Positions 9,753 to 52,091 of a stretch of 60,563 nt of DNA are shown here, in pieces. Where the stretch lies: the IMG/VR virus record IMGVR_UViG_3300032227_001790, positions 1 through 60,563 of that record. One strand, 5' to 3'. The notes below the pieces were generated by a model that did not search any database, was not told where the DNA came from, and worked only from the letters and a program-made list of their open reading frames with translations. Positions within the stretch are counted from its first letter, which is position 1, and each line of letters begins with the position of its first letter. The DNA comes from a virus. Taxonomy: Duplodnaviria > Caudoviricetes. Made by a program: the position numbers and the translations under genes.

Positions 9753-10133
9753 GTGAGCACACAATCCCATATAGATAAAGTAAATTTAAAGCCGAATACT
9801 CTCCCATACCCACACCATGTAGGTGCGCCTAAGATAGAACCAGTCGATGTAACATTTTTCAAACAGAATGGCACTCGAAAAGTTAATAGAGTTCTACAGA
9901 GAAGGTATGATGAGTTGTTGCAAGAGGCAGAAACACTCCAAAATTCGTATTTAACCAATCGGGAGGTATATGACTCACATTACAAATTTGAACCCGTTAT
10001 TGGGGAGATATATCATTTATACGAGGAGTTGGATGGTATAAAGACACTCTCGTTGATTTCACCGAAAGAATGGGGAAAAAAACATTTGTATTCTGTTGTT
10101 TTAAATTCTGATTTAACATGGACAAAAGTTTGA
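9753..10133 (+). CDS. DUF2452-like protein
   Basis: LPYP..VGAPKI, FEPVIGEIYHLY, LSLISPKEW. Confidence 0.75.
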   Translation: MSTQSHIDKVNLKPNTLPYPHHVGAPKIEPVDVTFFKQNGTRKVNRVLQRRYDELLQEAETLQNSYLTNREVYDSHYKFEPVIGEIYHLYEELDGIKTLSLISPKEWGKKHLYSVVLNSDLTWTKV

Positions 10134-10360
10134 TGAAACTGGTTGTCAAAGTTTTAGAAATCAATTATGAAAATTTAACTATCGAGTCTTGTGAGAAGGT
10201 AAAAACCTTTGCCTATGATGAGAAATCAGAAAATTGGTTACCTGATGACTTTACTTTGTTTATTAAAGTAAAAAATAAAACCCACGACATATGGAACTCT
10301 ACTGATGTTGAACGTTGTTTATTCGAACATTTAGGGGTCACTTCAGTAATAACTGTGTGA
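10118..10360 (+). CDS. hypothetical protein
   Basis: ORF. Confidence 0.6.
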   Translation: MDKSLMKLVVKVLEINYENLTIESCEKVKTFAYDEKSENWLPDDFTLFIKVKNKTHDIWNSTDVERCLFEHLGVTSVITV

Positions 10361-11879: not shown

Positions 11880-12452
11880 ATGAAACTAATCATACCACTT
11901 TTTTTTGTCTTCATCTTCCTTTCACCCAAAAAAGAACAAAAAGTAATTTATATTCAACCGTTGGGTAATGTAGAAACCAAATATATAAATCACATTCAAA
12001 TTACATTAAAAAATTTCTACGGATACAATTGTGTAGTTCAAAAAAAACTTGATTTAACCGAAGATTTATTATCAAAGTCAAAAAAAAGATATGACGGATT
12101 GAAAATCCTTAAAAAATTTAGGTCTGATAAAAATATTATCATTATAACCGAGAAAGATATTACAACAAAAAAAGGGATTTACGATGAATGGGGAATATTA
12201 GGACTTGGATTTAGACCTGGTACCGTTTGTGTAGTTTCAACTTATAGAATGAGAAGAAATGTTAATGAACAAAAAATACTTGATAGACTAAAAAAGGTTT
12301 CAATTCATGAGGTTGGACATAACTTAGGATTAGACCACTGTAAAAATGATATTAAGTGTATGATGAACGATGCAAAAGGAACCATAAGTCAAATTGACAA
12401 AGAAGAGTTTTATTTTTGTAAAAAATGTAAAAATCAAATCAATATTAAGTAA
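11880..12452 (+). CDS. archaemetzincin-like (M54) zinc metalloprotease
   Basis: HEVGHNLGLDHC...CMM...FCKKC. Confidence 0.88.
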   Translation: MKLIIPLFFVFIFLSPKKEQKVIYIQPLGNVETKYINHIQITLKNFYGYNCVVQKKLDLTEDLLSKSKKRYDGLKILKKFRSDKNIIIITEKDITTKKGIYDEWGILGLGFRPGTVCVVSTYRMRRNVNEQKILDRLKKVSIHEVGHNLGLDHCKNDIKCMMNDAKGTISQIDKEEFYFCKKCKNQINIK

Positions 12453-14182: not shown

Positions 14183-15154
14183 ATGAATGTTATTGTATCA
14201 CAGGACCAAATAGAAAGGGTAATCCCAAACGAAGACATCGAATTTGTCAGGAAATATAGAGAGATGTATGGTAATTACCCAACATTTAGGGGGCTACAAC
14301 AGGGTAAACATACTGTTGGTGAAGTTCATCCTAATCACTCAAAAAAAGATTTGAAATGGAAAACTTATGTTGATGGTTTAGGTAAACTTTTCTCACTGAT
14401 TGTTATGATAGTTTCTAAAGGAAAAGGTGAAGAATTGGCAGATATTAAAAAGACCGGAAAAAGACTTCAGAGCTTAGATAAGAAACATCTTTTTGTTAGT
14501 AAGTTAGAAGCATTTACGTACAACATATTTCTTTTAGAAAATGTTGCACAAGAAATGGAATTGGAACCGAAAAAGTTCTTACGTACCTGTAATAAAATAC
14601 CTGATTTTCTTTGGGAAAATAAAAAGGTGGTTATCGAGGTTGCTGGTATGGAATCTGAAAAATATATCAACAAGTTAGAAGATGCTAAAAAATGTTTTTC
14701 AGATTTGGGTTATAATGTAATAACTTTGGATGCAAGAAAATTCGAAAGGGCTAATAAATTTATAGAATATTACCTCTATGTGTGTAATATTTTTGGTTTT
14801 AAACCTAAAAAAGAAGTTTTGGGTTCTCCATACAAATATTTGGGATTTACGCAATTGCAACGTCAAGATTTACAAAAGTATATCGATGACAATATTAACA
14901 AGTACAATGAACTTGATAGAAAAGGTCAGTACACACTAAACAAGTATGTTCAGGAACTTCATGGTATCAATGTCAGACAATATAAAAATAAAATAGGAAT
15001 TCCAAGATATTCAACCTCAGTTTCAAAACAAAAAATAATTGACTACAAAAAAGAAAATCCTACAATGTCCAATCAGGAAATAGCCGATTACTTTGGAGTT
15101 AGTAAAAATACAATACAAGTAGCAACTTCAGGTATGGTTGGTAGAAACAATTAA
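14183..15154 (+). CDS. PD-(D/E)XK-like endonuclease with C-terminal HTH
   Basis: IPDF...VVIEVAG; MSNQEIADYFGVSKNTI. Confidence 0.6.
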   Translation: MNVIVSQDQIERVIPNEDIEFVRKYREMYGNYPTFRGLQQGKHTVGEVHPNHSKKDLKWKTYVDGLGKLFSLIVMIVSKGKGEELADIKKTGKRLQSLDKKHLFVSKLEAFTYNIFLLENVAQEMELEPKKFLRTCNKIPDFLWENKKVVIEVAGMESEKYINKLEDAKKCFSDLGYNVITLDARKFERANKFIEYYLYVCNIFGFKPKKEVLGSPYKYLGFTQLQRQDLQKYIDDNINKYNELDRKGQYTLNKYVQELHGINVRQYKNKIGIPRYSTSVSKQKIIDYKKENPTMSNQEIADYFGVSKNTIQVATSGMVGRNN

Positions 15155-15171: not shown

Positions 15172-16464
15172 ATGAAAAAAATTAGAAAACAAATAAAAAA
15201 GTTTTTAAACGAGATAGTTTCTGAAAAGAATGAAACAGAATTTAATTATGATTTATTCATAGAAAATATTTTAACTGAAGAAACTGAAAGGATTGATGTT
15301 GAGAAAAGATTGAAGAGTTATACTGGGGATATAAAAATTCTCGGTGATTTGCTCCAAAAACTCCAAAAAGGCGTATCTTTATCGGACGAAGAAATAGAGG
15401 TTGCAAAGAAAGAACTTGAAATACTTCAAAAACAAAAAAATACAATGACCAACACACCAAACATTTCTAAATTTATTAGGTCCAATAGAGATTTACAAAC
15501 AAAAGTTAAAAGTTTAGGGATAAAAACATATAAGGATTTAATAAGAACAGATAAAAAAATACTGTTAAATACTCTACTACAAAATACAAAGTTCCGAATA
15601 GATTCACCAAACGATAGTTGGTATCAAAGAAACATAGATGATTTAGAAATTCTTCGTAGTAGATTCAAATCTTCTGTTGGTAATATTAGATGGTCAGATG
15701 GGTCAATTTCCACATTTGATGAAAAAATAACCGAAATGATTGACAAATGTAAAAATAAAGATTTTTTTGGTATATTGGAAAAAGATGGGGATGAAGACGT
15801 TTGGAGTATCACGAACAAATTAGACACCAATTATAGTAATTGGGCTGAAATGATAGAAGATAAACAAAAAGAAGGTTTAATTTTTGGCTCAAATTATGAC
15901 GCTCTCATATTGGAATATTTCAAACAAAGACCAATTGATGAATCAATTACTGACAATGAATTGAGGGACAAAATAAAAGACATCAACAAAAAGAAAAATA
16001 TTCCAATCAATACTTTTAGTTTTGCAGAATCTGATATTATCGAGGCCTTCCAAGACGAATCAAGTCCAAAATTAAAAAACATATTCAATAGGTTATCAAG
16101 TACAACTAAAGAAGGTGATTATGTTGAAGAAAATTTCAAAAAATTAATTACTGGTTTTCCGAAATATGTTGAAGATTTACATGATTTTTCAAGTTGGGGT
16201 AATATTGTTGATATGGTTTTTGGTATCGACTTAATTGTAAAATTGAATGGAACTGAATATGCCGTTCAAGTTAAAAAAGACCAAAGACATGCCGAGAAGG
16301 CTTTCATAAGAAAATTGGGAATAAACTATGTTGTAATATATCCTTCAGGTAAAGGTAAGTATTACTTTGGTTATATTTCACCGAAACAACCAGGCGGAGA
16401 TTTTACAGAAGATTTTAGGAAACTCGTTCAACGAGAGAAGGAAGAAAATAAAAAAAGGGGATAA
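15172..16464 (+). CDS. hypothetical protein, possible C-terminal restriction-like nuclease fold
   Basis: GIDLIV...YAVQVKK (D...QxK); ILTEE leader. Confidence 0.55.
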   Translation: MKKIRKQIKKFLNEIVSEKNETEFNYDLFIENILTEETERIDVEKRLKSYTGDIKILGDLLQKLQKGVSLSDEEIEVAKKELEILQKQKNTMTNTPNISKFIRSNRDLQTKVKSLGIKTYKDLIRTDKKILLNTLLQNTKFRIDSPNDSWYQRNIDDLEILRSRFKSSVGNIRWSDGSISTFDEKITEMIDKCKNKDFFGILEKDGDEDVWSITNKLDTNYSNWAEMIEDKQKEGLIFGSNYDALILEYFKQRPIDESITDNELRDKIKDINKKKNIPINTFSFAESDIIEAFQDESSPKLKNIFNRLSSTTKEGDYVEENFKKLITGFPKYVEDLHDFSSWGNIVDMVFGIDLIVKLNGTEYAVQVKKDQRHAEKAFIRKLGINYVVIYPSGKGKYYFGYISPKQPGGDFTEDFRKLVQREKEENKKRG

Positions 16465-16478
16465 TTTCCCCCTTTTTT
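16449..16478. terminator. bidirectional terminator
   Basis: A-run GGGGA-TAATT-TCCCC T-run between convergent genes. Confidence 0.7.
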
Positions 16479-16855
16479 TAATAGTTTAACTTCTTCTCAA
16501 AATTATTCAAAAGAAATTTAATATTATCACTCCCAACAGGATTTGCAGAATGTATGTTCCATTTAGGTAATGGAATCCCATTAGTCCAACAATAATCACA
16601 TAACCACTTTGCGGCGTCATATCCAGTCTTTTCTTTAAACTCAACATTCAATGGGTCAGGTGGGTTATCATGTCCTCCATTATCAAAATAATATTTTGTG
16701 TGTTCTCTTGATAAATCGTGGTCAAATGAAACTTCATCAGGGGCACCATTCAGTTCGATATAGTTAATAAATTCATCGTAGCTGCGAACAATATCCCATC
16801 CCTCAGTTTTTGGAGTTCTTATGTCGTCTAAATATAACTTCTTTAATTGGTTCAT
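16478..16855 (-). CDS. cyclic-phosphate-processing receiver-like (cREC) protein
   Basis: LYLDDIRTP, VSFDHDL, TGYD, IHSANPVG. Confidence 0.8.
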   Translation of the reverse strand: MNQLKKLYLDDIRTPKTEGWDIVRSYDEFINYIELNGAPDEVSFDHDLSREHTKYYFDNGGHDNPPDPLNVEFKEKTGYDAAKWLCDYCWTNGIPLPKWNIHSANPVGSDNIKFLLNNFEKKLNY

Positions 16856-17057
16856 TTTTTTCTTTTTTTAATGATTCGTTACCAACTTCTTGGTAGGCGT
16901 CCCATAGTTGTCCTAAAGCGTACTCTAATTTAAATTTTATTTCTTTATTTTTTTTGGAGACAGGATGTTTTACACAATGTTCATCTAAAGTACACATTAG
17001 TACATGTAGTCTATCCATTAATTCCAAATAGTGACCATCATTTATTTTATTTTTCAT
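16803..17057 (-). CDS. hypothetical protein
   Basis: ORF; HYLELMDRLH motif. Confidence 0.65.
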   Translation of the reverse strand: MKNKINDGHYLELMDRLHVLMCTLDEHCVKHPVSKKNKEIKFKLEYALGQLWDAYQEVGNESLKKEKNEPIKEVIFRRHKNSKN

Positions 17058-17728
17058 GGGTAATCAATTTGTTTTGTTTCAACATCGAAATCAACAACTA
17101 TAGGTTTGTTATGATGTTGATATTGTTCGTCTAAAACTGAAGCGTTTAAGAATTCAACACCATTAAAATACTTTTGTCCATATGCACAATGGATATGACC
17201 GCAAACATGAATTTTTGGTTTGATTTCCATTATTTTATAAAATAAATCTTGACATCCGGCTTGAGTTCCATTTGGAAGCCAATCGAGCATTCCATGAGCT
17301 GGACCATGAGTAATTAATACATCAGTATCATTTGGTATTAAAGCCCACTTTTCAGCGAGTTTTTCCCCTCTTGGTAGGTTAAATGCCCAATTATAAAATT
17401 CTGGTTGCCATGGACTACCATAGAACTTAACACCATCAATTACAATCTCACTATCGAAAAGATAGTGAACGCCTTTTTCTTTGTATTCAGGTGCAATATC
17501 ATTATGGAGTTCGAAACCCCAATCATGATTACCTGCAATGAATATTTTGTGAGTAAACTCAGTATTTGAGAACCAATCCAAAAAGTTTTCGATTTCGTGA
17601 GTTTTACCCATACCTGTACAGTCACCGGCATGAACTAATACATCACCACTTCCAAGTATGTTATTATAAGCTTTGCTTGTAAGATGCTTGTGTTTGTTGT
17701 GGGTGTCGCTTATAAATGTAATTTTCAT
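17054..17728 (-). CDS. calcineurin-like metallophosphoesterase (MPPED-like)
   Basis: SDTH, HAGD, AGNHD, THGP, GHIH. Confidence 0.93.
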   Translation of the reverse strand: MKITFISDTHNKHKHLTSKAYNNILGSGDVLVHAGDCTGMGKTHEIENFLDWFSNTEFTHKIFIAGNHDWGFELHNDIAPEYKEKGVHYLFDSEIVIDGVKFYGSPWQPEFYNWAFNLPRGEKLAEKWALIPNDTDVLITHGPAHGMLDWLPNGTQAGCQDLFYKIMEIKPKIHVCGHIHCAYGQKYFNGVEFLNASVLDEQYQHHNKPIVVDFDVETKQIDYP

Positions 17729-41721: not shown

Positions 41722-42726
41722 GTGAAGATAAAACTTGATATTGAAAAAGAGTTGGTTCTTAATTTACATAGGAATCAAAAAACTGAGAAAATGAAGCTCA
41801 GAGAACAGGCTGGAGACTTAAGGTCCAAACTTCAAGCAATGATTGATAATGGACAGACTCCAGGCGCAATTGGAATTGCTGAATTAGAAACAACAAATCC
41901 TAATAGAAGATTTGCAATAAAAAAAGAAAGTAGTAAGACAAAAGGTAAAATAATTTATTTCTTTTTAGATGGGAAATACGGTTCATTTGGTGCAGATGGA
42001 AAATTTGCATTTGGACCTGGTATTTGGACTCCAGATGAGCCAAAAAACCAAATTATCGATAGAGATTTCAAAAATGCTGAAGTTGAATCATACAAAACTA
42101 AGTATGGTGCTAAGACTAAAGAAGAGGCAATTAACTCAGGATGGGATTTGACTAACTTAAAAAAAGTAACCATCCAAGGTATTGATTTATATATACCGAT
42201 GTCAAGTGCGAATGTTGTGACTGGAGTTTCACAAAAACAAAAAGAAGCCTTAGCAGACATGAAAAGAGAATATGGTGCTAAAGAGTGGCACGAAATGACA
42301 GGTGCAGAACAAAGAAACTGGAGAGAAATGGACATTCCAAACTCCGAAAAATTATTTGGTATCAAAGTAAAACTATATAGACCACAACAAGGAGATATGA
42401 AAATAGATACCAAATCACTTGATGATTTCAGTAGAGAATACGATGTTGATGAGTCAGATTGTTCAGATTTCATCCTCAAATATTTTGATGATTATAGAAC
42501 AGACAGACCGGTACCTCCGAGTTATTTTGATAACTTCAAACCAAAAGTACAATTCTGTAAAAATAAGTTTCACAATAGATGGGGTATTAGAGCAAACGCT
42601 AGAAAATTGAATAAAATTCTTGATTTAATGTCGAGAGAGATTAGTGAATTCCAAGGTGCGAGTCTACCACCGTCTTTCCCTGTAGAAGGGTCTACTAGAC
42701 ATCAATGGTTATTGAAAAATATATAA
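41722..42726 (+). CDS. hypothetical protein (GTG start; LREQ motif)
   Basis: ORF. Confidence 0.7.
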   Translation: MKIKLDIEKELVLNLHRNQKTEKMKLREQAGDLRSKLQAMIDNGQTPGAIGIAELETTNPNRRFAIKKESSKTKGKIIYFFLDGKYGSFGADGKFAFGPGIWTPDEPKNQIIDRDFKNAEVESYKTKYGAKTKEEAINSGWDLTNLKKVTIQGIDLYIPMSSANVVTGVSQKQKEALADMKREYGAKEWHEMTGAEQRNWREMDIPNSEKLFGIKVKLYRPQQGDMKIDTKSLDDFSREYDVDESDCSDFILKYFDDYRTDRPVPPSYFDNFKPKVQFCKNKFHNRWGIRANARKLNKILDLMSREISEFQGASLPPSFPVEGSTRHQWLLKNI

Positions 42727-45857: not shown

Positions 45858-46091
45858 TTAAATTTTAACTAAAGTTCCTTCGTTTATATCGTCCTGTGTT
45901 CCGGTTATTTGAATAGTACCATCTTTTTTATAAACAACAATCTTATTCCAATCCTTGAATGTTGTGGTGTTATTGGGTATATCTAAAACAATACCGTTAT
46001 TATCTTCAAAAATTAATTCTAACACTTTTGATAATACTATGGAAATATCAAAGACCTTTTGCGCGTTTTCTAAATTCAAATCTAAACTCAT
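45858..46091 (-). CDS. hypothetical protein
   Basis: ORF. Confidence 0.6.
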   Translation of the reverse strand: MSLDLNLENAQKVFDISIVLSKVLELIFEDNNGIVLDIPNNTTTFKDWNKIVVYKKDGTIQITGTQDDINEGTLVKI

Positions 46092-46125
46092 GGACTATTT
46101 TTTGTTACAAAAATAGTTTTAATCG

Positions 46126-46614
46126 TTAAGAAAATAAAGTTTTTTGAAAATCATTCCAAACATTTAATAGAGCATAATTATCATTCATGATTGTTGGGAC
46201 ATAAGGAGTATGTCTCATTTTCATTTTAGCTTCTTCGGGAGTTCTGTTTGCTTTTTTCAAATTACATTTAAAACAAGATGTTACCAAATTTTCCCAAGAG
46301 TTCGAACCCCCCTTGGACTTAGGTATCACATGGTCTATAGTCAATGTTTTTTTTGAACCACAATAAACACATTCATAGTTGTCCCTTTTATATATTCTAG
46401 TTCTATTTGCTCTGTATGTTCTTTTGTGAAATCCTATGAAGCTCAGAAGTCTGATTATTAGAGGCCTTGCAAAATTTTTTACTCCACAGATAATATCTTT
46501 TACATCAGATTTTATAATTTCTGCCTTACCTTTATATACAAGATTAAAACCTCTTTTTATAGAAGTAACATTCAAAGGGCTGTAATCATAATTTAATACC
46601 AATACTTCCTCCAT
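46126..46614 (-). CDS. HNH endonuclease (McrA-like)
   Basis: [37 protein letters not shown]. Confidence 0.93.
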
Positions 46615-46764
46615 TAGAATCTTTTGTTTTTAAACATATTAAAATAATTCATTTGAAAAAAGACTTATAAAATAAATACTTGATTTTTTTTTGGTATATT
46701 TGAAATTAGTTGTATTTTTGTTTCCAACATATACCCAAGATTTAATTAAAGTACGGGAATATAT

Positions 46765-46837
46765 TGACTCGTGGCGTAATGGTTAACGCGGCTCGCTCAT
46801 AACGAGAAGATTGTGGGTTCAAGTCCCTCCGAGTCAA
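46765..46837 (+). tRNA. tRNA-Met/Ile2 (CAT)
   Basis: TGACTCG/CGAGTCA acceptor, CTCG-CTCATAA-CGAG, GGTTCAAGTCC. Confidence 0.88.
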
Positions 46838-46898
46838 CAAATTAGGACTAATAACATTAAATTATGTTTTATTTCATAATTTATGATATTTATATCGT

Positions 46899-47450
46899 AT
46901 GAAAGAACAAAAAAATACATATGAGTATCAAGTGATGAGAGCGTTAAAACGAAAATTTCATTTAATTAGTCTTCATGGTGGTAAGTGTCAACATTGTGGA
47001 TATGACAAAAATTTGTCCGCACTTGATTTTCACCACAGAAACCCCGAAACAAAAAAATTTCAGTTAGACCAAAGAAGTTTAAGTAATTATTCGATGAAAT
47101 TAATTATGGAAGAATTTGAAAAGTGTGATGTTTTGTGTTCGAACTGTCATAGAGAACATCATTTTCCTGAGTTAGTTATTGAAACTATTAGAGAAAAAAT
47201 TTTAAGTTTTGACGGAAAAAAGTTTAAATGGTTAGAAATCAAAGAACAAAAAAAGTATTTTTGTGAAGATTGCTCGTGTGAAATATCAAAATGGGGTAAA
47301 AAATGTGTCGATTGTAATCACAAATCAAAAAGAAAAGTAACTCGACCAAATCTTGAAACTTTGAAAAAAGAAACTGATGTATATGGGTACGAATGGGCGG
47401 GAAGAAAATATAAAGTAACGGGGAAGACAATAAAAAAATGGTTGAAATAA
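46899..47450 (+). CDS. HNH-type endonuclease with Zn ribbon and HTH, beside tRNA
   Basis: CQHCGY...LDFHH...CDVLCSNCHREHH; CEDC..CVDC. Confidence 0.85.
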   Translation: MKEQKNTYEYQVMRALKRKFHLISLHGGKCQHCGYDKNLSALDFHHRNPETKKFQLDQRSLSNYSMKLIMEEFEKCDVLCSNCHREHHFPELVIETIREKILSFDGKKFKWLEIKEQKKYFCEDCSCEISKWGKKCVDCNHKSKRKVTRPNLETLKKETDVYGYEWAGRKYKVTGKTIKKWLK

Positions 47451-47456
47451 AAAAAT

Positions 47457-48050
47457 ATGTCGTACATAGAAAAATATAAAGTGGTTTGGCTTATGCCACA
47501 AAGAGCTTGTACAAGGTCTAGTGTGTCTCTTTTGAAACATTGTGATAGTTTCGTGAACAGAGGACATGAGCTTTCAATCCCTGAAGATAAATTAGACTAC
47601 ACCTTAGTATTCAACATAAGAAACCCTCTACCAAGAATCGTTTCAATTTATTGGTTATCGTGTTTGCACAATCGAGATTTCTACAGAAACTTTGAAGAAT
47701 GGTTATATGAACATGAGTATTGGGAAGAGGATTATCAACTTCATCTTCCATTATATTTGGAAGTATTACCCAAAAAACCCGATTACTTTGTTAGGACTGA
47801 ATTCTATAATGAAGACCTAATGAATATAAAACCATTGAAAGAATTTTTTATTTCTTTGGGTAATGACTATCATGAACAAGTTATCGAAAATCAATATATC
47901 AATGAGTTCAAAGATAAAACTGATAAGGTAAGATTGCCTTGGTATACTGAATATAATCAAAAAACGGCAGATTTTGTTTACGAAATCTGTAAACCACAAT
48001 TTGAAATGTTCGGTTATAATAAAAACTATTGGAAAGATGGCACACCCTAA
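47457..48050 (+). CDS. sulfotransferase-like protein
   Basis: PQRACTRS (degenerate 5'-PSB), IRNPLPRIVS, DYFVRTE, FEMFGY. Confidence 0.65.
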   Translation: MSYIEKYKVVWLMPQRACTRSSVSLLKHCDSFVNRGHELSIPEDKLDYTLVFNIRNPLPRIVSIYWLSCLHNRDFYRNFEEWLYEHEYWEEDYQLHLPLYLEVLPKKPDYFVRTEFYNEDLMNIKPLKEFFISLGNDYHEQVIENQYINEFKDKTDKVRLPWYTEYNQKTADFVYEICKPQFEMFGYNKNYWKDGTP

Positions 48051-48390
48051 CTTACATGCAAAGTCTTCGGCAAAAAAATTTGGAGGAAAACCTGAAGATT
48101 ATATTCATTTACACGAATGGTTAGATGAGACAAAATCTTGGTATGGTGATTCTTTACATAGAATGTTTAGACATCATAGTGAGGGTATTTTTGAAATGGA
48201 ACAAAAGTTTGGAACTGAGTTTAAAAATTCAGATGGAAAAACAGTTTACACAAGATACGTAGGCGAACAACATGTTTCAGAAGATTGTTATGGATATATA
48301 CCAAGTGCAAAGGAGTGGGTATTGAACATGAAAGAAGGTAATAGACCACAGTGGATGATACGAACAAAGAAATTAGAATTTGAAGATTGA
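48037..48390 (+). CDS. DUF6915-like protein
   Basis: MAHP..HAKSSAKKFGG.PEDY..H...D, HR..RHH, EQHV.ED. Confidence 0.75.
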   Translation: MAHPNLHAKSSAKKFGGKPEDYIHLHEWLDETKSWYGDSLHRMFRHHSEGIFEMEQKFGTEFKNSDGKTVYTRYVGEQHVSEDCYGYIPSAKEWVLNMKEGNRPQWMIRTKKLEFED

Positions 48391-48408
48391 TATTTATAAT
48401 TAAAAGTT

Positions 48409-49119
48409 ATGGAACTATTCACACCGGAAGATAAAAAAACCCTAAGAATTACGTCACGATATTTAGAGTCTCTCGGAATTTCATCGGGGTTAGTGGAATT
48501 TAATTTCTATGATGGGTCAGACGATGTTGACTTAGATAAAGAAATTCCTTTTGGGCAACATGAAAAGAATTTTAGTAATCATCATAACATAGAGGTTCCT
48601 GAACCTATCTACCCTATAATTGATAAAATTTTAATGTATTGTAACGATAAAATGACATTCAAAAATGTTTATGTCGACTATTTGAACTATGTTACGCTAT
48701 CGATAGATATTGATGTTGATATGAAGATGGTATCCGCGACCAAATACTGTGGATATACTGATTCTGGTAGTGAAGATGGAACCACATGGGATTCACAAGA
48801 AGATGAAGAGGTTAAAAAATTACTTGAAATGCTTTCAGAAGAAAGTGAGGATTCGAGTTTATTAGTGTTAAGATATAATGGTGGTGGTGATAGTGGATAT
48901 ATTGAGGACAATTTTGAAAATCAATTGGATGTTCCTGCATCAGTTGAAGATTGGTGTTACCAACAATTAGAAAACAATCATGGCGGTTGGGAAATAAATG
49001 AAGGCTCTTCAGGATATTTTGAGTTTGACCTAAAAAATGGTTTAATTCATTTGTACCATACCATGAACGAAGAGTTCAATGTTAGTGACACTATTTTTGA
49101 AGAAAGTTTTGCAAAATAA
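48409..49119 (+). CDS. DUF6878-like acidic protein
   Basis: YNGGGDSGYIE and GWEINEGSSG. Confidence 0.7.
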   Translation: MELFTPEDKKTLRITSRYLESLGISSGLVEFNFYDGSDDVDLDKEIPFGQHEKNFSNHHNIEVPEPIYPIIDKILMYCNDKMTFKNVYVDYLNYVTLSIDIDVDMKMVSATKYCGYTDSGSEDGTTWDSQEDEEVKKLLEMLSEESEDSSLLVLRYNGGGDSGYIEDNFENQLDVPASVEDWCYQQLENNHGGWEINEGSSGYFEFDLKNGLIHLYHTMNEEFNVSDTIFEESFAK

Positions 49120-49138
49120 AATACTTTTCTTATCTTTG
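49108..49138 (+). promoter_or_regulatory. Bacteroidetes-type promoter for tRNA-Leu
   Basis: TTTG 49108-49111, 19 nt, TATCTTTG 49131-49138. Confidence 0.75.
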
Positions 49139-49151
49139 TAATCAATTAAAT

Positions 49152-49264
49152 ACCTTGGTGGTGGAATAGGTAGACACGCTGGACTTACGGGAGCTTCAAC
49201 TCGTCGCACCGTAAAATCCTGTGAACCGAAAAAGTTCGTGCGGGTTCGATTCCCGCCTGAGGTA
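49152..49264 (+). tRNA. tRNA-Leu(TAA) with 26-nt insertion in the anticodon loop
   Basis: ACCTTGG/CTGAGGT acceptor, Leu-type D loop and variable arm; GGACTT[26 nt]AAAATCC. Confidence 0.85.
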
Positions 49265-49302
49265 CAATTGATTTTTTATATTTTTTTACTATTTATTATA
49301 TT

Positions 49303-49398
49303 ATGAACAACAATTTGAGACATAATATTAATGTAGAACAACAAAATACTTGTTGGTGTCAACATATGCTCAAGTGTAGTTCAAATCAAATTAGTTAA
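49303..49398 (+). CDS. 31-aa leader-like peptide
   Basis: MNNNLRHNINVEQQNTCWCQHMLKCSSNQIS*; TATTTAT upstream, terminator downstream. Confidence 0.4.
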   Translation: MNNNLRHNINVEQQNTCWCQHMLKCSSNQIS

Positions 49399-49421
49399 GT
49401 TCCTGAAGACTTATATACACG

Positions 49422-49457
49422 ACCCCGAACTACAGAAATGTATTCGGGGTTTTTTTA
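49422..49457 (+). terminator. intrinsic terminator
   Basis: ACCCCGAA...TTCGGGGT plus T-run. Confidence 0.8.
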
Positions 49458-49495
49458 TTTTTGGTTCTTTGAGATATAGTTCGTAAATTTGTAAC

Positions 49496-49729
49496 ATGAA
49501 AGCAATATTAGAATTTAATTTACCTGAAGACAACCAAGACTTCCAACTTGCCTCAAACGCAATGAAATTTTGGTCTGTGTTGTATGAGTTGGACCAAGAC
49601 CTAAGGTCAAAAACTAAGTATGCACCTGACAGCTTACCACAAGACAAGTATGATGCATATGAGGAAGTTAGGGAAATGTTACATGAACTGATGAGAAATG
49701 AAAATATTAGTTTAGATATGGTCTCATAG
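49496..49729 (+). CDS. conserved phage hypothetical protein
   Basis: MKAILEFNLPED; TAAATTTG promoter 49484-49491. Confidence 0.8.
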   Translation: MKAILEFNLPEDNQDFQLASNAMKFWSVLYELDQDLRSKTKYAPDSLPQDKYDAYEEVREMLHELMRNENISLDMVS

Positions 49730-49741
49730 GTTAATATGAAT

Positions 49742-49812
49742 GGTCGGGTGGCCGAGTGGTTAGGCTGAAGTCTGCAAAACTTCCTACCCCAGTTCGAACC
49801 TGGGTCCGACCT
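49742..49812 (+). tRNA. tRNA-Cys(GCA)
   Basis: GAAGT-CTGCAAA-ACTTC; U discriminator. Confidence 0.95.
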
Positions 49813-49819
49813 CAGTAAT

Positions 49820-49892
49820 ACGTGCGTAGCTCAATTGGTAGAGTACTAGTCTCCAAAACTAGGAGTTTCAGGTTCGAGTCCTGACGTGCGTG
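49820..49892 (+). tRNA. tRNA-Trp(CCA)
   Basis: CTAGT-CTCCAAA-ACTAG; canonical arms. Confidence 0.95.
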
Positions 49893-49895
49893 CAT

Positions 49896-50023
49896 AGGTT
49901 GATTGGGGAATGATGATATGATATACCTGTTAATGGTTGGAAGTTAATGTCATCGGAGTTGAAATTATCATAGTAATGCCAATCGTAAAAGGAGTTGTCC
50001 ACTCGACCATCTTCTCCTTTCCT
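49896..50023 (+). ncRNA. candidate ~128-nt structured RNA between tRNA-Trp and tRNA-Asn
   Basis: Nested stems GATTGG/CCAATC, ATGATGAT/ATTATCAT, ATGATAT/ATGTCAT, then AAAGGAG/CTCCTTT. Confidence 0.6.
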
Positions 50024-50027
50024 TAAA

Positions 50028-50099
50028 GTCTCCTTAGCTCAGTGGTAGAGCATCTCGCTGTTAACGAGAGGGCCTAAGGTTCGAAACCTTGAGGGGACG
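50028..50099 (+). tRNA. tRNA-Asn(GTT)
   Basis: TCTCG-CTGTTAA-CGAGA; canonical arms. Confidence 0.95.
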
Positions 50100-50239
50100 C
50101 AAAAAATTAAAATATTATGAAAATTTTATTTACAAAAATCAAAAATAAATTTGTAGAATTTTACAACTTTCTTAAGTTTGTCGAAAAGAAAAGACTCGAA
50201 CTCATGGAAAGAGCAACATGGGGAAAATTCTGAAATTTT

Positions 50240-50458
50240 ATGAGAAAAAAACGACCATTATTCAAATTATTACTATTTTGTTCGGTTTATAATTTGTTAT
50301 CTTGTAATGTATCAAATCCCAAAGTTATAGGTTCAAGTAATCTATTTAGGGAAGTTACTTTTAGTGGATGTGAATACTATCAAATCGAGTATGGTATCGG
50401 TGAAGGAAGTGTTTACAGATTAATACATAAAGATAGTTGTAAAAATCATCATAAATGA
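50240..50458 (+). CDS. small lipoprotein-like protein
   Basis: LLSC; GCEY...HKDSCKN. Confidence 0.6.
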   Translation: MRKKRPLFKLLLFCSVYNLLSCNVSNPKVIGSSNLFREVTFSGCEYYQIEYGIGEGSVYRLIHKDSCKNHHK

Positions 50459-50492
50459 TAAAAATCCGGAGATACAAATAAGTTCAAAATAT

Positions 50493-50564
50493 GACCTTAT
50501 AGTATAACGGATAGTATGTCTCACTTCGAATGAGCTGGTTTAGGTTCGAATCCTAATGGGGTCA
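50493..50564 (+). tRNA. tRNA-Arg(TCG)
   Basis: CTCA-CTTCGAA-TGAG; A20 present in D loop. Confidence 0.9.
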
Positions 50565-50580
50565 CTCTAAAAAAATAGAA

Positions 50581-51264
50581 ATGGATAATCTTAACTTAGA
50601 AAATTTTGATTGGGGAAATTCTTCAGAATGGTACAAGTCATTTATTGGAGATGAAATTTTCAATCAAAGAATTTACGAAAAATTTTTCACTGTAGATGAA
50701 GGTGATATTGTTATGGACGTTGGTGCCAGCACAGGAATTTTTACATATTCTATTTTGAATAATAATCCTAAACATGTCTTTTGTGTTGAACCAAGCTTTG
50801 ACCAATTTCTTACCTTGAACAAAAACACTATAAAAGGAAATGTTACATGTATTAACAAAGCAATTTCAAGCGACATTGGAGTTAGTGATAAAATTGAGGC
50901 GTATAATGATAAAGAATTACAACACTATACAATCACATTCAAAAAGTTTTTAGAAAACTATAATGTTCAAAAGATAGATTTTATAAAAACAGACTGTGAA
51001 GGAGGTGAATACGATATTTTTAACGTTGAAAATCTTATATGGATTAAAGAAAACGTTAGAAAAGTTGCAGGTGAATTTCATTTGGGACAATTCAACGGGG
51101 TTGACCTCACAAGTCGATTCAAGGTTTTTAGAGATGTTTATTTGAGAGTATTCGATAACTTTCAGGTTCTTTCTATAGACGGTGTTGATATCAAATGGGA
51201 ATTATGGACAGAAAATTTTACAAATTATTATAAACAGGTTTTAATTTATATTGATAATAGATAA
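50581..51264 (+). CDS. FkbM-family methyltransferase
   Basis: MDVGASTG, VEP, IKTDCEGGEY. Confidence 0.9.
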   Translation: MDNLNLENFDWGNSSEWYKSFIGDEIFNQRIYEKFFTVDEGDIVMDVGASTGIFTYSILNNNPKHVFCVEPSFDQFLTLNKNTIKGNVTCINKAISSDIGVSDKIEAYNDKELQHYTITFKKFLENYNVQKIDFIKTDCEGGEYDIFNVENLIWIKENVRKVAGEFHLGQFNGVDLTSRFKVFRDVYLRVFDNFQVLSIDGVDIKWELWTENFTNYYKQVLIYIDNR

Positions 51265-51311
51265 AATATTTGACTCACTTTTTTTTCAAATTATAATTAT
51301 AAATGTTAGCA

Positions 51312-51382
51312 GGGTGGTTCGTTTAGCGGTAAGACAATTGACTCCGACTCAGTTAAGGTAGGTTCGACTCCTACACCATCCA
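51312..51382 (+). tRNA. tRNA with CCG anticodon (nominal Arg, atypical body)
   Basis: GGGTGGT/ACCATCC, ATTGA-CTCCGAC-TCAGT, GGTTCGACTCC. Confidence 0.8.
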
Positions 51383-51451
51383 CAGAACTTATTGTTCATT
51401 GAAATAAAAACGTTTCTGATACTTCGTGTTATAAATTTAATTATATTTGTA

Positions 51452-51540
51452 ACAGGACGTATACTCCTCCCATGGGGGGGTAGACTCTCGCTAGAGTTGT
51501 TGTCTTGATGGTGACAGCTCAGAATCACGAGTCGGAGTAA
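51452..51540 (+). ncRNA. candidate structured RNA / 5' leader
   Basis: Follows TATATTTG promoter; GAGTTGTTGTC/GGTGACAGCTC hairpin inside GACTC/GAGTC. Confidence 0.5.
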
Positions 51541-51578
51541 CCGTATTAGAAATAATTTTATAATTAAAACCAAATATT

Positions 51579-51878
51579 ATGTTATTACAAGTTATTAAAA
51601 TGTCAGACGAAGTGACAGTTAGTTCACTTCCACACCCAATCTCGATGTTCTTTTTAGGTATCTTTGCAATTACCATCATCTTCATGTGGATTGAGGTAAA
51701 TCGAGGTACTAAAAGAAAGGATAAACTTTTGTCAGATATGGAAAGTTTAAAAAAAGATTATTCCGACTACAAATCAGAAATGAGTCAGAAGTTTACAGAA
51801 TTATCAAAAAAAATTGACTCTAGAGTAGACAAAGCTGTTGTAAGTTTAAAAAAACAAGGTAAACTTATCAACGAATAA
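51579..51878 (+). CDS. single-TM coiled-coil protein
   Basis: TM, KIDSRVDK. Confidence 0.7.
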   Translation: MLLQVIKMSDEVTVSSLPHPISMFFLGIFAITIIFMWIEVNRGTKRKDKLLSDMESLKKDYSDYKSEMSQKFTELSKKIDSRVDKAVVSLKKQGKLINE

Positions 51879-51926
51879 AAAAAAACTCAGACAATGTCTG
51901 AGTTTTTTCAATTTGTTCCAAAAAGA

Positions 51927-52091
51927 TTACTTCTTTTTTTCAACAATTGACCATACAGTACCTACAAGTCCTAAAACTCCACCGAGTACTTCTTGAACCA
52001 TGGCATCATCAACCAATCCTTTTACAACTAGAATACCACCCGCAAAAGTAATTACGTGTCTAACAATACCTAATACTTGTTCTTTAGTCAT
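51927..52091 (-). CDS. small two-TM putative holin (54 aa, not in ORF track)
   Basis: MTKEQVLGIVRHVITFAGGILVVKG...WSIVEKKK; TATTTAT upstream. Confidence 0.7.
   Translation of the reverse strand: MTKEQVLGIVRHVITFAGGILVVKGLVDDAMVQEVLGGVLGLVGTVWSIVEKKK

What the first reader, a model, noticed from the sequence alone, without database searches (positions are those of the whole stretch)
49152..49264. tRNA-Leu(UAA) with a 26-nt hairpin mini-intron in the anticodon
Seen: an otherwise normal, promoter-driven tRNA-Leu reads GGACTT-ACGGGAGCTTCAACTCGTCGCACCGT-AAAATCC. Removing 26 nt (49187-49212, register ambiguous by 1 nt either way) restores the CTTAAAA loop. The insert folds (TACGG/CCGTA, GAG/CTC). 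Established: group I introns occupy this site in bacterial tRNA-Leu(UAA) but are about 200 nt or more; short protein-spliced tRNA introns are archaeal/eukaryotic. Inference: a protein-dependent phage tRNA splicing route (possibly using the phage ligase and kinase), a nuclease-proof or conditionally activated tRNA, or an intron relic.
Basis: partly seen in the sequence, partly recalled or inferred. Interest (0 to 1): 0.8.

Follow-up and report, generated by a model that had tools for sequence, protein, structure and literature searches.

The report
Hairpin mini-intron in phage tRNAs
A large phage's leucine tRNA gene is interrupted by a 26-base hairpin that related phages keep through compensating mutations, which suggests bacterial viruses splice some of their tRNAs in a way not yet described.

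Summary
Window 49152-49264 (+) is a tRNA-Leu(UAA) gene with 26 extra bases in the anticodon loop (Rfam 39.7 bits; ARAGORN finds it only in intron mode).

It is not a one-off or a relic. Pattern scans found 11 distinct versions in 15 phage-type records: nine of 26 nt, one of 28 and one of 29. The same design occurs in a tRNA-Arg(UCU) (24 nt) and a tRNA-Glu(UUC) (28 nt).

- The insert sits at 36/37 (35/36 in the window).
- It is a hairpin plus a 2-nt 3' tail that pairs with the last two 5'-exon bases.
- U33-U34 pair with the first two 3'-exon bases. Both junctions therefore lie in one continuous helix, offset by 2 bp with 3' overhangs. There is no bulge-helix-bulge.
- Intron-side pairs change only by double compensatory changes. 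Exon-side pairs never change.
- Removing the insert in silico gives a canonical tRNA in 13 of 13 cases.

Nine of 14 hairpin- or 21-nt-type records encode a T4 Rnl1-type ligase, against 0 of 10 controls. In one complete genome the ligase ends 54 nt before the interrupted tRNA.

Splicing itself is not shown, and the cutting enzyme is unknown.

The parts
49152..49264 (+). tRNA-Leu(UAA) gene, type II (long variable arm), interrupted in the anticodon loop; no encoded CCA
   Evidence: Rfam RF00005 39.7 bits. ARAGORN with introns calls tRNA-Leu(taa). After in-silico removal of the insert, default ARAGORN calls tRNA-Leu(taa) of 88 nt.
49152..49187 (+). 5' exon, ending C32 U33 U34 A35
   Evidence: Register fixed by homology to 10 other versions in which only one register restores CUUAAAA.
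49188..49213 (+). 26-nt mini-intron: a 24-nt hairpin plus a 2-nt 3' tail (UA) that pairs with U34-A35
   Evidence: It has 0 of 26 differences among three strains (window, L005, L030).
49214..49264 (+). 3' exon, starting A36 A37 A38
49185..49190 (+). 5' strand of the splice helix (U33 U34 A35 plus the first three intron bases)
   Evidence: RNAfold and RNAalifold.
49209..49214 (+). 3' strand of the splice helix (three intron bases, the 2-nt tail, and A36)
33388..34695 (-). T4 Rnl1-type RNA ligase (motif I KMDGS present), the candidate sealing enzyme; it carries a 150-nt in-frame insertion relative to the sister strain
   Evidence: PF09511 at 70.7 bits against a cut-off of 28.3. Homologues lie in related contigs. 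The insertion is shown.
35145..35591 (-). Polynucleotide-kinase-like P-loop kinase (AAA_33). In the window it is interrupted by TAA at 35526-35528 inside the P-loop; the sister strain G009 has an intact 144-aa frame
36765..37415 (-). Calcineurin-like metallophosphoesterase, a candidate 3'-end healing enzyme, clustered with the kinase and ligase
   Evidence: PF00149 9e-10 and phrog_547 phosphoesterase 2e-41. Homologues sit beside Rnl1 in G020 and G023.
16478..16855 (-). cREC (cyclic-phosphate processing receiver) domain protein
   Evidence: PF20274 1.3e-24. A homologue abuts the phosphoesterase-Rnl1 cluster in G023.
17054..17728 (-). Second metallophosphoesterase, next to the cREC gene
   Evidence: PF12850 and PF00149.
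35661..36551 (+). NUMOD3 homing-endonuclease gene inside a 1,025-nt insertion (35520-36544) that the sister strain lacks and that abuts the broken 5' end of the kinase

Best explanation
The 26 bases are a genuine, selected tRNA intron of a class not yet described. I call it a hairpin mini-intron. It occurs in tRNAs of large freshwater and environmental phages whose anticodon loop reads C-U-U-N-N-A-A.

Shown from sequence: the intron lies between positions 36 and 37 (35/36 in the window). It is a roughly 22-27-nt hairpin followed by two bases complementary to the last two 5'-exon bases. U33-U34 pair with the first two 3'-exon bases. The precursor's anticodon arm is therefore one continuous helix of 12 bp or more with only C32 unpaired. 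The anticodon is buried, and the two junctions face each other with a 2-bp offset and 3' overhangs.

Inferred: a protein endonuclease that recognises this helix makes both cuts. The near-constant hairpin length suggests it measures about one helical turn from the hairpin loop. The two tRNA halves stay held together by the anticodon stem. The break between 36 and 37 is then sealed by the phage's own Rnl1-type tRNA-repair ligase, or RtcB in one lineage. The neighbouring kinase and phosphoesterases would heal the ends if they are 5'-OH and 2',3'-cyclic phosphate.

Open: the cutter is unknown. The 2-nt 3' stagger fits an RNase III-type enzyme of the host. The linked healing enzymes and the RtcB lineage fit a cyclic-phosphate-forming nuclease instead.
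For: 1. Recurrence. There are 11 distinct tRNA-Leu(UAA) versions in 15 records: window, L005, L030, L031, L089, L011, L027, L021, L029, L039, L085, L098, L149, L096, L079. Nine of the 11 have exactly 26 nt, one has 28 and one has 29.

2. Covariation on alignment A2 (9 distinct sequences). The four exon-side pairs of the splice helix never vary. The five intron-side pairs vary only by changes on both sides (1, 1, 3, 3 and 1 sequences) with no one-sided change, although two of them have 2 and 1 unpaired cells. Overall 98.5% of cells pair, 0 of 500 shuffles reach this, and slid controls reach 33-50%. RNAalifold predicts the same helix independently.

3. The window variant has one base fewer on the 5' side and one more on the 3' side, and its last intron base is A instead of U. 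This keeps the total at 33 nt, keeps the 2-nt tail pairing, and still restores CUUAAAA.

4. The design is general. A 24-nt intron in tRNA-Arg(UCU) of G023 has the tail AG opposite C35-U36. A 28-nt intron in tRNA-Glu(UUC) of L096 has the tail GA opposite U35-C36.

5. In-silico removal at the deduced sites gives a tRNA that default ARAGORN accepts in 13 of 13 cases.

6. Specificity. Among ARAGORN intron candidates, 17 of 61 in 1.12 Mb of phage loci have all 7 helix pairs (8 distinct inserts: 6 of the Leu family, the Glu case, and a doubtful 16-nt one in L034). In 0.90 Mb of genome-collection loci, 1 of 3 does, and that one is the phage-like contig L149.

7. The tRNA is needed. UUA is 41% of Leu codons in 23 window ORFs. 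In the related tRNA arrays examined, the interrupted gene is the only type II tRNA-Leu(UAA) that ARAGORN finds; G004 and G006 also hold 75-77-nt genes with a UAA anticodon and no long variable arm.

8. Ligase linkage. PF09511 (Rnl1) is present in 6 of 11 searched records with the hairpin type. That includes all 6 contigs of the 26-nt kind that are 18 kb or longer. It is also present in 3 of 3 records with a separate 21-nt insert type, and in 0 of 10 control phage records with intronless or long-intron tRNA-Leu.

9. In the complete 221-kb genome G020 the order on one strand is kinase, Rnl1, then the interrupted tRNA 54 nt later. G024 has a kinase fused to a fungal-tRNA-ligase-type cyclic phosphodiesterase, PF08302, 2.5 kb from Rnl1. 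The 29-nt lineage G021 has RtcB instead.
Against: - No RNA data. The only RNA run that shares words with the region has no contig of this phage across the tRNA.
- No cutting enzyme was identified. RNase III (PF14622) was found in 0 of 11 records and archaeal/eukaryal tRNA-intron endonuclease (PF01974) in 0 of 8, including the complete genome G020.
- The Rnl1 association is not phylogenetically independent, because the carriers have homologous tRNAs and partly shared gene order. RNA ligases are also common in large tRNA-rich phages for repair (PMC7824862, passages read).
- Five of the 11 hairpin-type records show no Rnl1: three fragments of 9-17 kb (G001-G003), G021 at 62% complete and G022 at 42% complete.
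- In the window the kinase frame carries an in-frame TAA, and the anticodon stem has a U-U mismatch that L030 lacks.
- Exon-side invariance could in principle reflect recognition by a protein other than the ribosome.
Confidence: 0.55

Rival explanations
1. The RNA is not spliced. The long-armed tRNA-like molecule is itself the product. It could be a decoy that soaks up host anticodon nucleases or tRNA-modifying enzymes. It could also be a leucine-charged tRNA kept out of the ribosome and used as an amino-acid donor.
For: No spliced RNA was seen and no endonuclease was found. From general knowledge, not tested here, bacterial LeuRS does not read the anticodon, so the precursor could be charged. 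The window encodes ClpP, which would fit a Leu-tRNA-dependent N-degron route only very loosely.
Against: The exon-side bases C-U-U-A-(A) and (A)-A-A never change, while the adjacent intron pairs change freely. Removing the insert restores a canonical 7-nt loop in 13 of 13 cases across three tRNA identities. The window's one-base slide preserves exactly that property. The interrupted gene is the only type II tRNA-Leu(UAA) in the arrays examined, while UUA is the commonest Leu codon. The distal hairpin is not conserved in sequence, as expected for discarded RNA.
Confidence: 0.2
2. This is a selfish or protective DNA insert. A small element associated with the many free-standing homing-endonuclease genes in these tRNA clusters disrupts an endonuclease target site in the tRNA gene, and the tRNA is inactive or dispensable.
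For: HNH or GIY-YIG homing-endonuclease genes lie directly beside the interrupted tRNA in G006 and G007 (HNH upstream) and G001 (GIY-YIG downstream). Several more lie in the window. From general knowledge, tRNA-Leu(UAA) is a known intron-homing hot spot.
Against: This explains spread but not the RNA-level signature. The helix is kept by compensatory changes, the tail matches each tRNA's anticodon, and the tRNA bodies stay canonical across deep divergence. It can coexist with the splicing explanation, as an intron plus a neighbouring endonuclease.
Confidence: 0.1
3. This is a decayed group I intron, a deletion relic in a dead tRNA gene.
For: Phage tRNA-Leu(UAA) genes with long inserts exist: 195 nt in L044 and L049, and longer inserts in L007/L008, L009 and L037.
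Against: In L044, L007 and L009, where both junctions were read, those inserts lie at 34/35 and end in G (the 3' junction of L037 was not located). In 10 of 11 mini-intron versions only 36/37 restores the loop. There are no intermediate lengths and no shared sequence. Length is constant and pairs covary. Rfam finds no group I match in the window.
Confidence: 0.03
4. A variant of the cutting step within the main explanation. [quoted passage not shown] The enzyme could be a host anticodon-nuclease-like or an unrecognised phage enzyme, and the pathway would resemble fungal tRNA splicing. Host RNase III would not be involved.
For: A kinase plus a phosphoesterase (metallophosphoesterase, cREC or a 2H/CPD fusion) accompany Rnl1 in G000, G009, G020, G023 and G024. 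One lineage has RtcB, which from general knowledge joins only such ends.
Against: These healing enzymes are expected anyway for repairing host-inflicted tRNA damage (PMC7824862). The strict 2-nt 3' stagger inside a perfect helix is the hallmark of RNase III-type cleavage. No Tpt1 (PF01885) was found in 0 of 8 records.
Confidence: 0.25

Closest known systems
Group I self-splicing intron of bacterial and plastid tRNA-Leu(UAA)
   Same: It interrupts the same tRNA, in the anticodon loop. Phage examples with long inserts at 34/35 were seen here (L044, L007, L009).
   Different: Those inserts are 195 nt or longer, sit at 34/35 and end in G. The insert here is 24-29 nt, sits at 36/37, has no ribozyme core (no Rfam match) and is far too small to self-splice by that chemistry.
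Archaeal and eukaryal protein-spliced tRNA introns (bulge-helix-bulge motif, EndA/Sen endonuclease, RtcB or Trl1 ligase)
   Same: Both are short and lie in the anticodon loop. In both, the anticodon pairs with the intron, and excision needs proteins followed by an RNA ligase. Homologues of the fungal Trl1 modules (Rnl1-type ligase, P-loop kinase, CPD) are present in the carrier phages.
   Different: There are no 3-nt bulges and no 4-bp central helix, so the junctions lie inside a continuous helix with a 2-bp offset. The position is 36/37 rather than 37/38. No EndA-type gene was found in 8 records, including a complete genome. The hosts are bacterial viruses.
T4 tRNA repair (host PrrC anticodon nuclease; phage Pnkp and Rnl1), recalled from general knowledge
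   Same: The same ligase family is involved, with a kinase and phosphatase nearby. The substrate would likewise be a tRNA broken in the anticodon loop and held together by its stem.
   Different: In T4 the break is host-inflicted damage to a host tRNA at 33/34. Here the break would be a programmed step in maturing the phage's own tRNAs at 36/37, with a piece removed.
'Enigmatic' introns in tRNAs of Lak megaphages (Devoto et al. 2019, PMC6784885; passages read)
   Same: These are phage tRNA genes with inserts that are not classifiable as known introns, are conserved between genomes, and have no known mechanism.
   Different: The Lak inserts are described in a supplementary table that I could not open. 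One of them holds a tRNA-like element, as does the 79-nt insert in L006 seen here. No hairpin rule, covariation or ligase linkage is reported in the passages read.
RNase III substrates (dsRNA hairpins cut on both strands with 2-nt 3' overhangs), recalled from general knowledge
   Same: The precursor arm is a 12-20-bp helix, and the deduced junctions have exactly the 2-nt 3' overhang geometry in 13 of 13 cases.
   Different: No case is known to me in which RNase III products in a tRNA are rejoined. Cleavage was not tested, and the phages encode no RNase III.

Membership tests
tRNA (type II, Leu, anticodon UAA) | Cloverleaf with D, anticodon, long variable and T arms, scoring above the Rfam threshold | tested here: met
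   RF00005 scores 39.7 bits against 29. All four arms covary in A2. ARAGORN calls tRNA-Leu(taa) once the insert is removed.
Group I intron | Conserved catalytic core (P3-P9), about 200 nt or more | tested here: not met
   The insert is 26 nt, and the Rfam gathering scan of the window lists only tRNA hits.
Group I intron | In tRNA-Leu(UAA): insertion at 34/35 with a terminal G | tested here: not met
   Homologues fix the site at 36/37, and the last intron base is U (A in the window). Long phage introns at 34/35 that end in G were seen for contrast.
Bulge-helix-bulge (archaeal/eukaryal) tRNA intron | Two 3-nt bulges carrying the splice sites, separated by a 4-bp helix | tested here: not met
   Single-sequence and consensus folds give an uninterrupted 6-7-bp helix across both sites, with only C32 unpaired. 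Manual pairing of the required registers fails.
Bulge-helix-bulge (archaeal/eukaryal) tRNA intron | A cognate EndA/Sen-type endonuclease in the genome | tested here: not met
   PF01974 was found in 0 of 8 records, including the complete G020. The control search hit 4 archaeal genomes. A host-encoded enzyme cannot be excluded.
T4 Rnl1-type RNA ligase (window 33388-34695) | Match to the family profile above the curated cut-off, with the motif I lysine | tested here: met
   PF09511 scores 70.7 bits against 28.3. The motif KMDGS is visible in the translation (alignment). A sequence search of the PDB did not reach T4 Rnl1.
T4 Rnl1-type RNA ligase (window 33388-34695) | Seals tRNA broken in the anticodon loop | not testable with these tools
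   This needs an enzyme assay.
Heal-and-seal tRNA ligation (Trl1-like module set) | Ligase, 5'-OH kinase and 2',3'-cyclic phosphodiesterase or phosphatase together | tested here: met
   The window holds Rnl1, an AAA_33 kinase (interrupted; intact in G009), a metallophosphoesterase and cREC. G024 has a kinase-PF08302 fusion. Tpt1 was found in 0 of 8 records.
RNase III substrate | dsRNA helix of about one turn or more, with cuts offset by 2 nt leaving 3' overhangs | tested here: inconclusive
   The geometry of the deduced junctions fits in 13 of 13 cases, and helices are 12-20 bp. Actual cleavage and end chemistry were not tested.

The most novel reading that the evidence does not exclude
Large phages run their own protein-dependent tRNA splicing pathway. 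Pre-tRNAs with U34 anticodons (Leu-UAA, Arg-UCU, Glu-UUC) are made with the anticodon locked inside a helix. A double-strand-specific cut with a 2-nt 3' stagger, measured about one helical turn from the hairpin loop, releases the hairpin. The phage's Rnl1, known so far only as a repair enzyme, seals the loop. The native substrates of phage RNA-repair ligases would then include the phage's own tRNA precursors. The intron would also keep these nuclease-prone U34 tRNAs masked from host anticodon nucleases until the phage's repair machinery is present.
Probability: 0.35. Interest if true: 0.9.

Novelty: new variant of a known kind. Interest (0 to 1): 0.8.

Why it matters
Short protein-spliced tRNA introns are regarded as a trait of archaea and eukaryotes. 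Bacteria and their viruses are thought to have only self-splicing ones.

A conserved hairpin intron class in phage tRNAs, with a recognition structure unlike bulge-helix-bulge, would add a new kind of tRNA intron. Its physical link to Rnl1, kinase and phosphoesterase genes would give the widespread phage RNA-repair enzymes a housekeeping substrate. It would also offer an explanation for the 'enigmatic' phage tRNA introns reported in 2019.

In practice, default bacterial tRNA finders miss these genes, so phage tRNA repertoires are under-counted. The rule is simple: the intron tail complements bases 35-36. That makes the hypothesis directly testable with a transcript of about 115 nt and three or four purified enzymes.

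Tried and rejected
**RNA evidence.** The look-up of sequencing runs returned one RNA run, a freshwater metatranscriptome kept as contigs, sharing 0.07 of the words. When it was laid on 46000-52000, no contig of this phage crossed the tRNA. One foreign 105-nt contig matches 49153-49187 and continues as an uninterrupted tRNA-Leu(UAA) with different flanks. It says nothing about splicing here.

**Cultured relatives.** No close phage record exists: megablast of 10 kb gave no match. tRNA queries hit only 3' halves of intronless tRNA-Leu genes in crAss-like phages, Lak phages and a cyanophage. The nearest Rnl1 in isolates is about 32% identical, in Streptomyces phages.

**Cutter candidates.**
- RNase III was not found in 0 of 5 and 0 of 6 records.
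- EndA-type endonuclease was not found in 0 of 8 records.
- A 100-aa family with no Pfam or PHROG match lies directly upstream of the interrupted tRNA in G004 and G024, and nearby in G001, G002, G005, G006 and G007. It is absent from the complete genome G020 and from the window, so it cannot be a universal factor.
- A YkuK-type RNase H-like gene (PF04308) lies within 0.5-10 kb of the tRNA in G002, G003, G020 and G023. It is also found in G008 and in two controls with 195-nt introns, and it is absent from the window lineage, G004, and the 21-, 28- and 29-nt records. It remains only a weak candidate (PMC3985635 passages).

**Other checks.** Tpt1 was found in 0 of 8 records. A PDB sequence search with the ligase found only a chance-level kinase match. 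The genome-collection scan with the strict pattern gave 0 hits. Two of these carried an intron-type tRNA call: the family member L149, and L190, an archaeal tRNA with a 41-nt intron of its own kind that is not related. A scan for more tRNA-Arg(UCU) cases found only the lineage already known, in 2 of 4 hits; the other 2 were intronless.

**Literature.** Eight of the nine searches made found no paper describing this intron class. The ninth concerned the YkuK family. One listed 'mini-intron' paper (PMC3590771) proved irrelevant once its passages were read. The supplementary table of PMC6784885, which lists the Lak intron sequences, could not be opened and may hold related cases.
Full report
**What is there.** The window is a 60.5-kb virus record estimated at 20% complete, so it is a fragment of a phage of roughly 300 kb. 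GC content is 32%, and default ARAGORN finds 10 tRNA genes. Positions 49152-49264 (+) match Rfam's tRNA model at 39.7 bits, with 29 bases where the anticodon loop should have 3. Default ARAGORN does not see the gene. With introns allowed it calls tRNA-Leu(taa) with a 26-nt intron. 'Promoter-driven' is the exception, because the consensus scan does not support it.

**It recurs and is under selection.** An identical tRNA lies in a second contig (L005) whose flanks are 92-99% identical to the window, so it comes from another strain. Degenerate patterns built on the tRNA body recovered further versions:
- from viral contigs: L011/L027, L021, L039, L085/L098, L089, L096 and L079;
- from metagenome contigs: L029, L030 and L031;
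- from a 170-kb contig binned into a Methanobacterium MAG: L149. This contig carries 21 tRNA genes and phage-type repair genes, so it looks like a phage.

That makes 11 distinct sequences in 15 records. Nine have exactly 26 extra bases, one has 28 and one has 29. The tRNA bodies have diverged: there are several different acceptor stems and variable arms, and two of the nine aligned sequences differ in the T stem.

Between the window and strain L030 the insert shows 0 of 26 differences and the exons 1 of 87. That single change turns the window's U-U mismatch in the anticodon stem into an A-U pair. The 200 nt downstream show 25 differences. Three crAss-like phage tRNA-Leu(UAA) genes found by similarity are uninterrupted.

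**Anatomy.** In 10 of the 11 versions only one register restores the loop CUUAAAA: the 5' exon ends CUUAA and the 3' exon starts AA, so the intron lies between 36 and 37. The intron's first three bases pair with the three bases that precede its last two. Those last two bases (UU) pair with A35-A36, and U33-U34 pair with A37-A38.

The anticodon stem, a bulged C32 and this 7-bp helix form one continuous arm. The two junctions lie on opposite strands of that helix, 2 bp apart. Cutting at both would leave 2-nt 3' overhangs on the exon duplex and on the released hairpin.

The window version has one A fewer on the 5' side and one more on the 3' side, and its last intron base is A rather than U. Relative to the hairpin the geometry is unchanged: tail UA pairs with U34-A35, the total stays 33 nt, and CUUAAAA is still restored. 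Relative to the tRNA the intron sits at 35/36. This slide with compensation is hard to explain unless both the 2-nt tail pairing and the restored loop are selected.

**Covariation.** On the 9-sequence alignment A2, the four exon-side pairs of the helix never vary. The next three pairs and two further inner pairs vary only through changes on both sides. The pair types are CG/UA, GC/AU, GC/CG, GC/UA/AU and CG/UA. There is not a single one-sided change, although two of the inner pairs have 2 and 1 unpaired cells. Over the whole structure 98.5% of cells pair, 0 of 500 shuffles reach the observed values, and slid controls give 33-50% pairing. RNAalifold finds the same helix on its own. The distal part of the hairpin is conserved in neither sequence nor fold. 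The boundary between invariant and freely covarying pairs falls exactly at the deduced 5' junction.

**The design is not specific to leucine.**
- In G023, which also carries the Leu intron, a tRNA-Arg(UCU) about 200 nt away has a 24-nt insert with tail AG opposite C35-U36.
- In L096, which also carries a 28-nt Leu intron, a tRNA-Glu(UUC) has a 28-nt insert with tail GA opposite U35-C36. Its arm folds into a 20-bp helix.

All three tRNAs have the loop C-U-U-N-N-A-A, which lets U33-U34 pair with A37-A38. Removing the insert in silico gives a tRNA that default ARAGORN accepts in 13 of 13 cases.

As a rough specificity check, 17 of 61 ARAGORN intron candidates in 1.12 Mb of phage loci have all seven helix pairs. 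These are 8 distinct inserts: 6 of the Leu family, the Glu case, and a doubtful 16-nt one in L034. The window itself has 6 of 7. In 0.90 Mb of genome-collection loci, 1 of 3 candidates does, and that one is the phage-like contig L149.

**Comparison with known intron classes.** It is not a group I intron. It is too small, has no Rfam match, sits at a different site and lacks a terminal G. Other phages do carry long inserts in tRNA-Leu(UAA). In L044, L007 and L009, where both junctions were read, they sit at 34/35 and end in G. By recollection their core motifs look like group I, although Rfam did not report them. No intermediates link the two kinds, so the relic idea fails.

It is not a bulge-helix-bulge intron either. 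There are no 3-nt bulges and no 4-bp central helix. No EndA-type gene was found in 8 records, including the complete 221-kb genome G020.

**Linked enzymes.** The window encodes an Rnl1-type RNA ligase at 33388-34695 (PF09511, 70.7 bits). Upstream on the same strand lies a polynucleotide-kinase-like P-loop kinase at 35145-35591. It is interrupted by a TAA in the P-loop, next to a 1,025-nt insertion that carries a NUMOD3 homing endonuclease. The sister strain lacks that insertion and has the kinase intact. A metallophosphoesterase follows at 36765-37415. A cREC cyclic-phosphate-processing gene and a second phosphoesterase lie at 16478-17728.

Searches of the records gave this distribution of Rnl1:
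- Hairpin-type records: 6 of 11 (G000, G009, G004, G020, G023, G024). This includes every 26-nt-type contig of 18 kb or more.
- Records with a distinct 21-nt insert in another tRNA-Leu(UAA) lineage: 3 of 3 (G005-G007).
- The 344-kb record with a 79-nt insert: 0 of 1.
- Control records with uninterrupted or long-intron tRNA-Leu: 0 of 10 (14-168 kb, three of them at least 98% complete).

In G020 the kinase, Rnl1 and the interrupted tRNA follow one another on one strand, with 54 nt between ligase and tRNA. G024 has a kinase fused to a fungal-tRNA-ligase-type phosphodiesterase (PF08302, 24.2 bits against 23). The 29-nt lineage G021 lacks Rnl1 but has RtcB.

These associations are suggestive, not proof. 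The carriers are related. A comparative review also reports that RNA ligases with kinases and phosphoesterases are common in tRNA-rich jumbo phages as repair systems (PMC7824862, passages read).

**How it most likely works.** Shown: the conserved architecture, the covariation, the restoration of canonical tRNAs, and the gene linkage.

Inferred: the precursor is cut at both junctions by an enzyme that reads the helix. The near-constant hairpin length (22-27 nt, about one A-form turn plus a loop) suggests measuring from the loop. The halves stay paired through the anticodon stem. The 36/37 break in the loop is then the kind of substrate that, from knowledge of T4, Rnl1 is specialised to seal.

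The 2-nt 3' stagger is the signature of RNase III-type cleavage, whose 5'-phosphate and 3'-OH ends Rnl1 could join directly. The phages encode no RNase III (0 of 11 records), so it would have to be the host's. Alternatively a nuclease that leaves 5'-OH and cyclic-phosphate ends acts, and the kinase and phosphoesterase genes heal them, as in fungal tRNA splicing. The RtcB lineage favours this route. I cannot decide between the two.

A YkuK-type RNase H-like gene near the tRNA in four lineages is a weak third candidate.

Why keep such an intron? UUA is 41% of Leu codons and AGA 69% of Arg codons in the window's genes, so these tRNAs matter to the phage. Burying a U34 anticodon loop in a helix would hide it from anticodon nucleases and tie activation to the phage's own enzymes. 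Neighbouring homing-endonuclease genes may also help the insert spread. These last points are speculation.

**Limits.** No RNA evidence could be obtained. Most records are fragments. The hosts are unknown. The Lak phage supplementary table, the only published list of phage tRNA inserts I know of, was closed.

**Verdict.** The feature is real, conserved and structurally defined, and it fits no known tRNA intron class. The splicing pathway is inferred, not shown.

Noticed in passing
L227/L228 (record G023) 23741-23839, minus strand; same gene in L085 about 1300-1400: A tRNA-Arg(UCU) carries a 24-nt hairpin insert at 36/37 whose 2-nt tail (AG) pairs with C35-U36. It lies about 200 nt from the interrupted tRNA-Leu of the same phage.
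   Followed up: yes
L096 1929-2027, minus strand: A tRNA-Glu(UUC) carries a 28-nt hairpin insert of the same design (tail GA opposite U35-C36). The arm folds into a 20-bp helix. The same contig also has the 28-nt tRNA-Leu version.
   Followed up: yes
L032, L046, L042 (records G005-G007), e.g. G006 12149-12256: A different tRNA-Leu(UAA) lineage has a 21-nt insert at 35/36 with a 4-bp hairpin and no continuous splice helix. An HNH gene lies directly upstream, and Rnl1 is present in all three records.
   Followed up: partly
L006 6371-6536 (344-kb record G008): A tRNA-Leu(UAA) has a 79-nt insert at 36/37 that contains a T-arm-like element. It recalls the tRNA-like intron reported for Lak phages. 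Neither Rnl1 nor RtcB was found in this 94%-complete record.
   Followed up: partly
L044/L049, L007/L008, L009, L037: Phage tRNA-Leu(UAA) genes carry inserts of 195 nt or more. In L044, L007 and L009 they lie at 34/35 and end in G (the 3' junction in L037 was not located). They look like group I introns, but Rfam reported none at gathering score or at E up to 0.1.
   Followed up: partly
window 34219-34368 (minus strand, inside the Rnl1 gene): A 150-nt in-frame insertion (50 aa) lies just after ligase motif I. It is absent from the sister strain G009. Its nature is unknown.
   Followed up: partly
window 35520-36544 and 35526-35528: A 1,025-nt insertion carrying a NUMOD3 homing-endonuclease gene is absent from the sister strain. 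It abuts the 5' end of the kinase gene, which here has an in-frame TAA inside its P-loop.
   Followed up: partly
window 31231-32529 (minus strand): The thymidylate synthase is 432 aa, while the 266-position profile is matched end to end across residues 11-431. The gene therefore holds about 160 aa of inserted sequence.
   Followed up: no
L061 17226-17522; L229 9665-9946; L065 14074-14376; L064 8764-9090; L058 2297-2584: A family of about 100 aa has an invariant PxWKLxSKNxxQWMxKP motif and a CxxC, with no Pfam or PHROG match. It lies directly upstream of the interrupted tRNA-Leu in two lineages and nearby in three others. It is absent from the complete genome G020.
   Followed up: partly
G003 16159-16530; G020 42323-42718; G023 14286-14684; G002 1807-2178; G015 20586-20990; G017 9761-10165: YkuK-type RNase H-like genes (PF04308, function unknown) repeatedly lie near interrupted tRNA-Leu(UAA) genes, both of the mini-intron kind and of the 195-nt kind.
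   Followed up: partly
G023 15040-15149, 20371-20474, 20534-20644 (minus strand): Three tRNA-like genes share one acceptor stem and one T arm but have unrelated, over-long middle sections. No anticodon could be assigned.
   Followed up: no
G024 contig C114 93424-93544 (minus strand); G004 16451-16586; G006 21153-21266: Further over-long tRNA-like genes sit inside tRNA arrays (121, 136 and 114 nt). Their inserts do not follow the hairpin rule and remain unresolved.
   Followed up: no
L149 / G024 contig C114 (170,662 nt): A contig binned into a Methanobacterium MAG carries 21 bacterial-type tRNA genes in 36 kb, plus Rnl1 and a kinase-CPD fusion. It is probably a mis-binned large phage.
   Followed up: partly
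L037 6425-6701 (minus strand): A permuted tmRNA match (RF04321, 63.8 bits against a gathering score of 47) lies in a 168-kb phage contig next to tRNA genes.
   Followed up: no
L018/L020/L028; L012 family; L022; L015/L023: Other phage type II tRNA-like genes have extra sequence between the D arm and the anticodon arm or in the variable region. They were not analysed.
   Followed up: no
window 21411-22835 (minus strand): The phage encodes a PAS-PAS histidine-kinase-like protein (PAS_3 2.7e-29, HATPase_c 6.5e-12).
   Followed up: no
window 49180 with 49220: There is a U-U mismatch in the anticodon stem (positions 28:42) of the window and L005 versions. L030 and all other lineages have a standard pair there.
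   Followed up: yes
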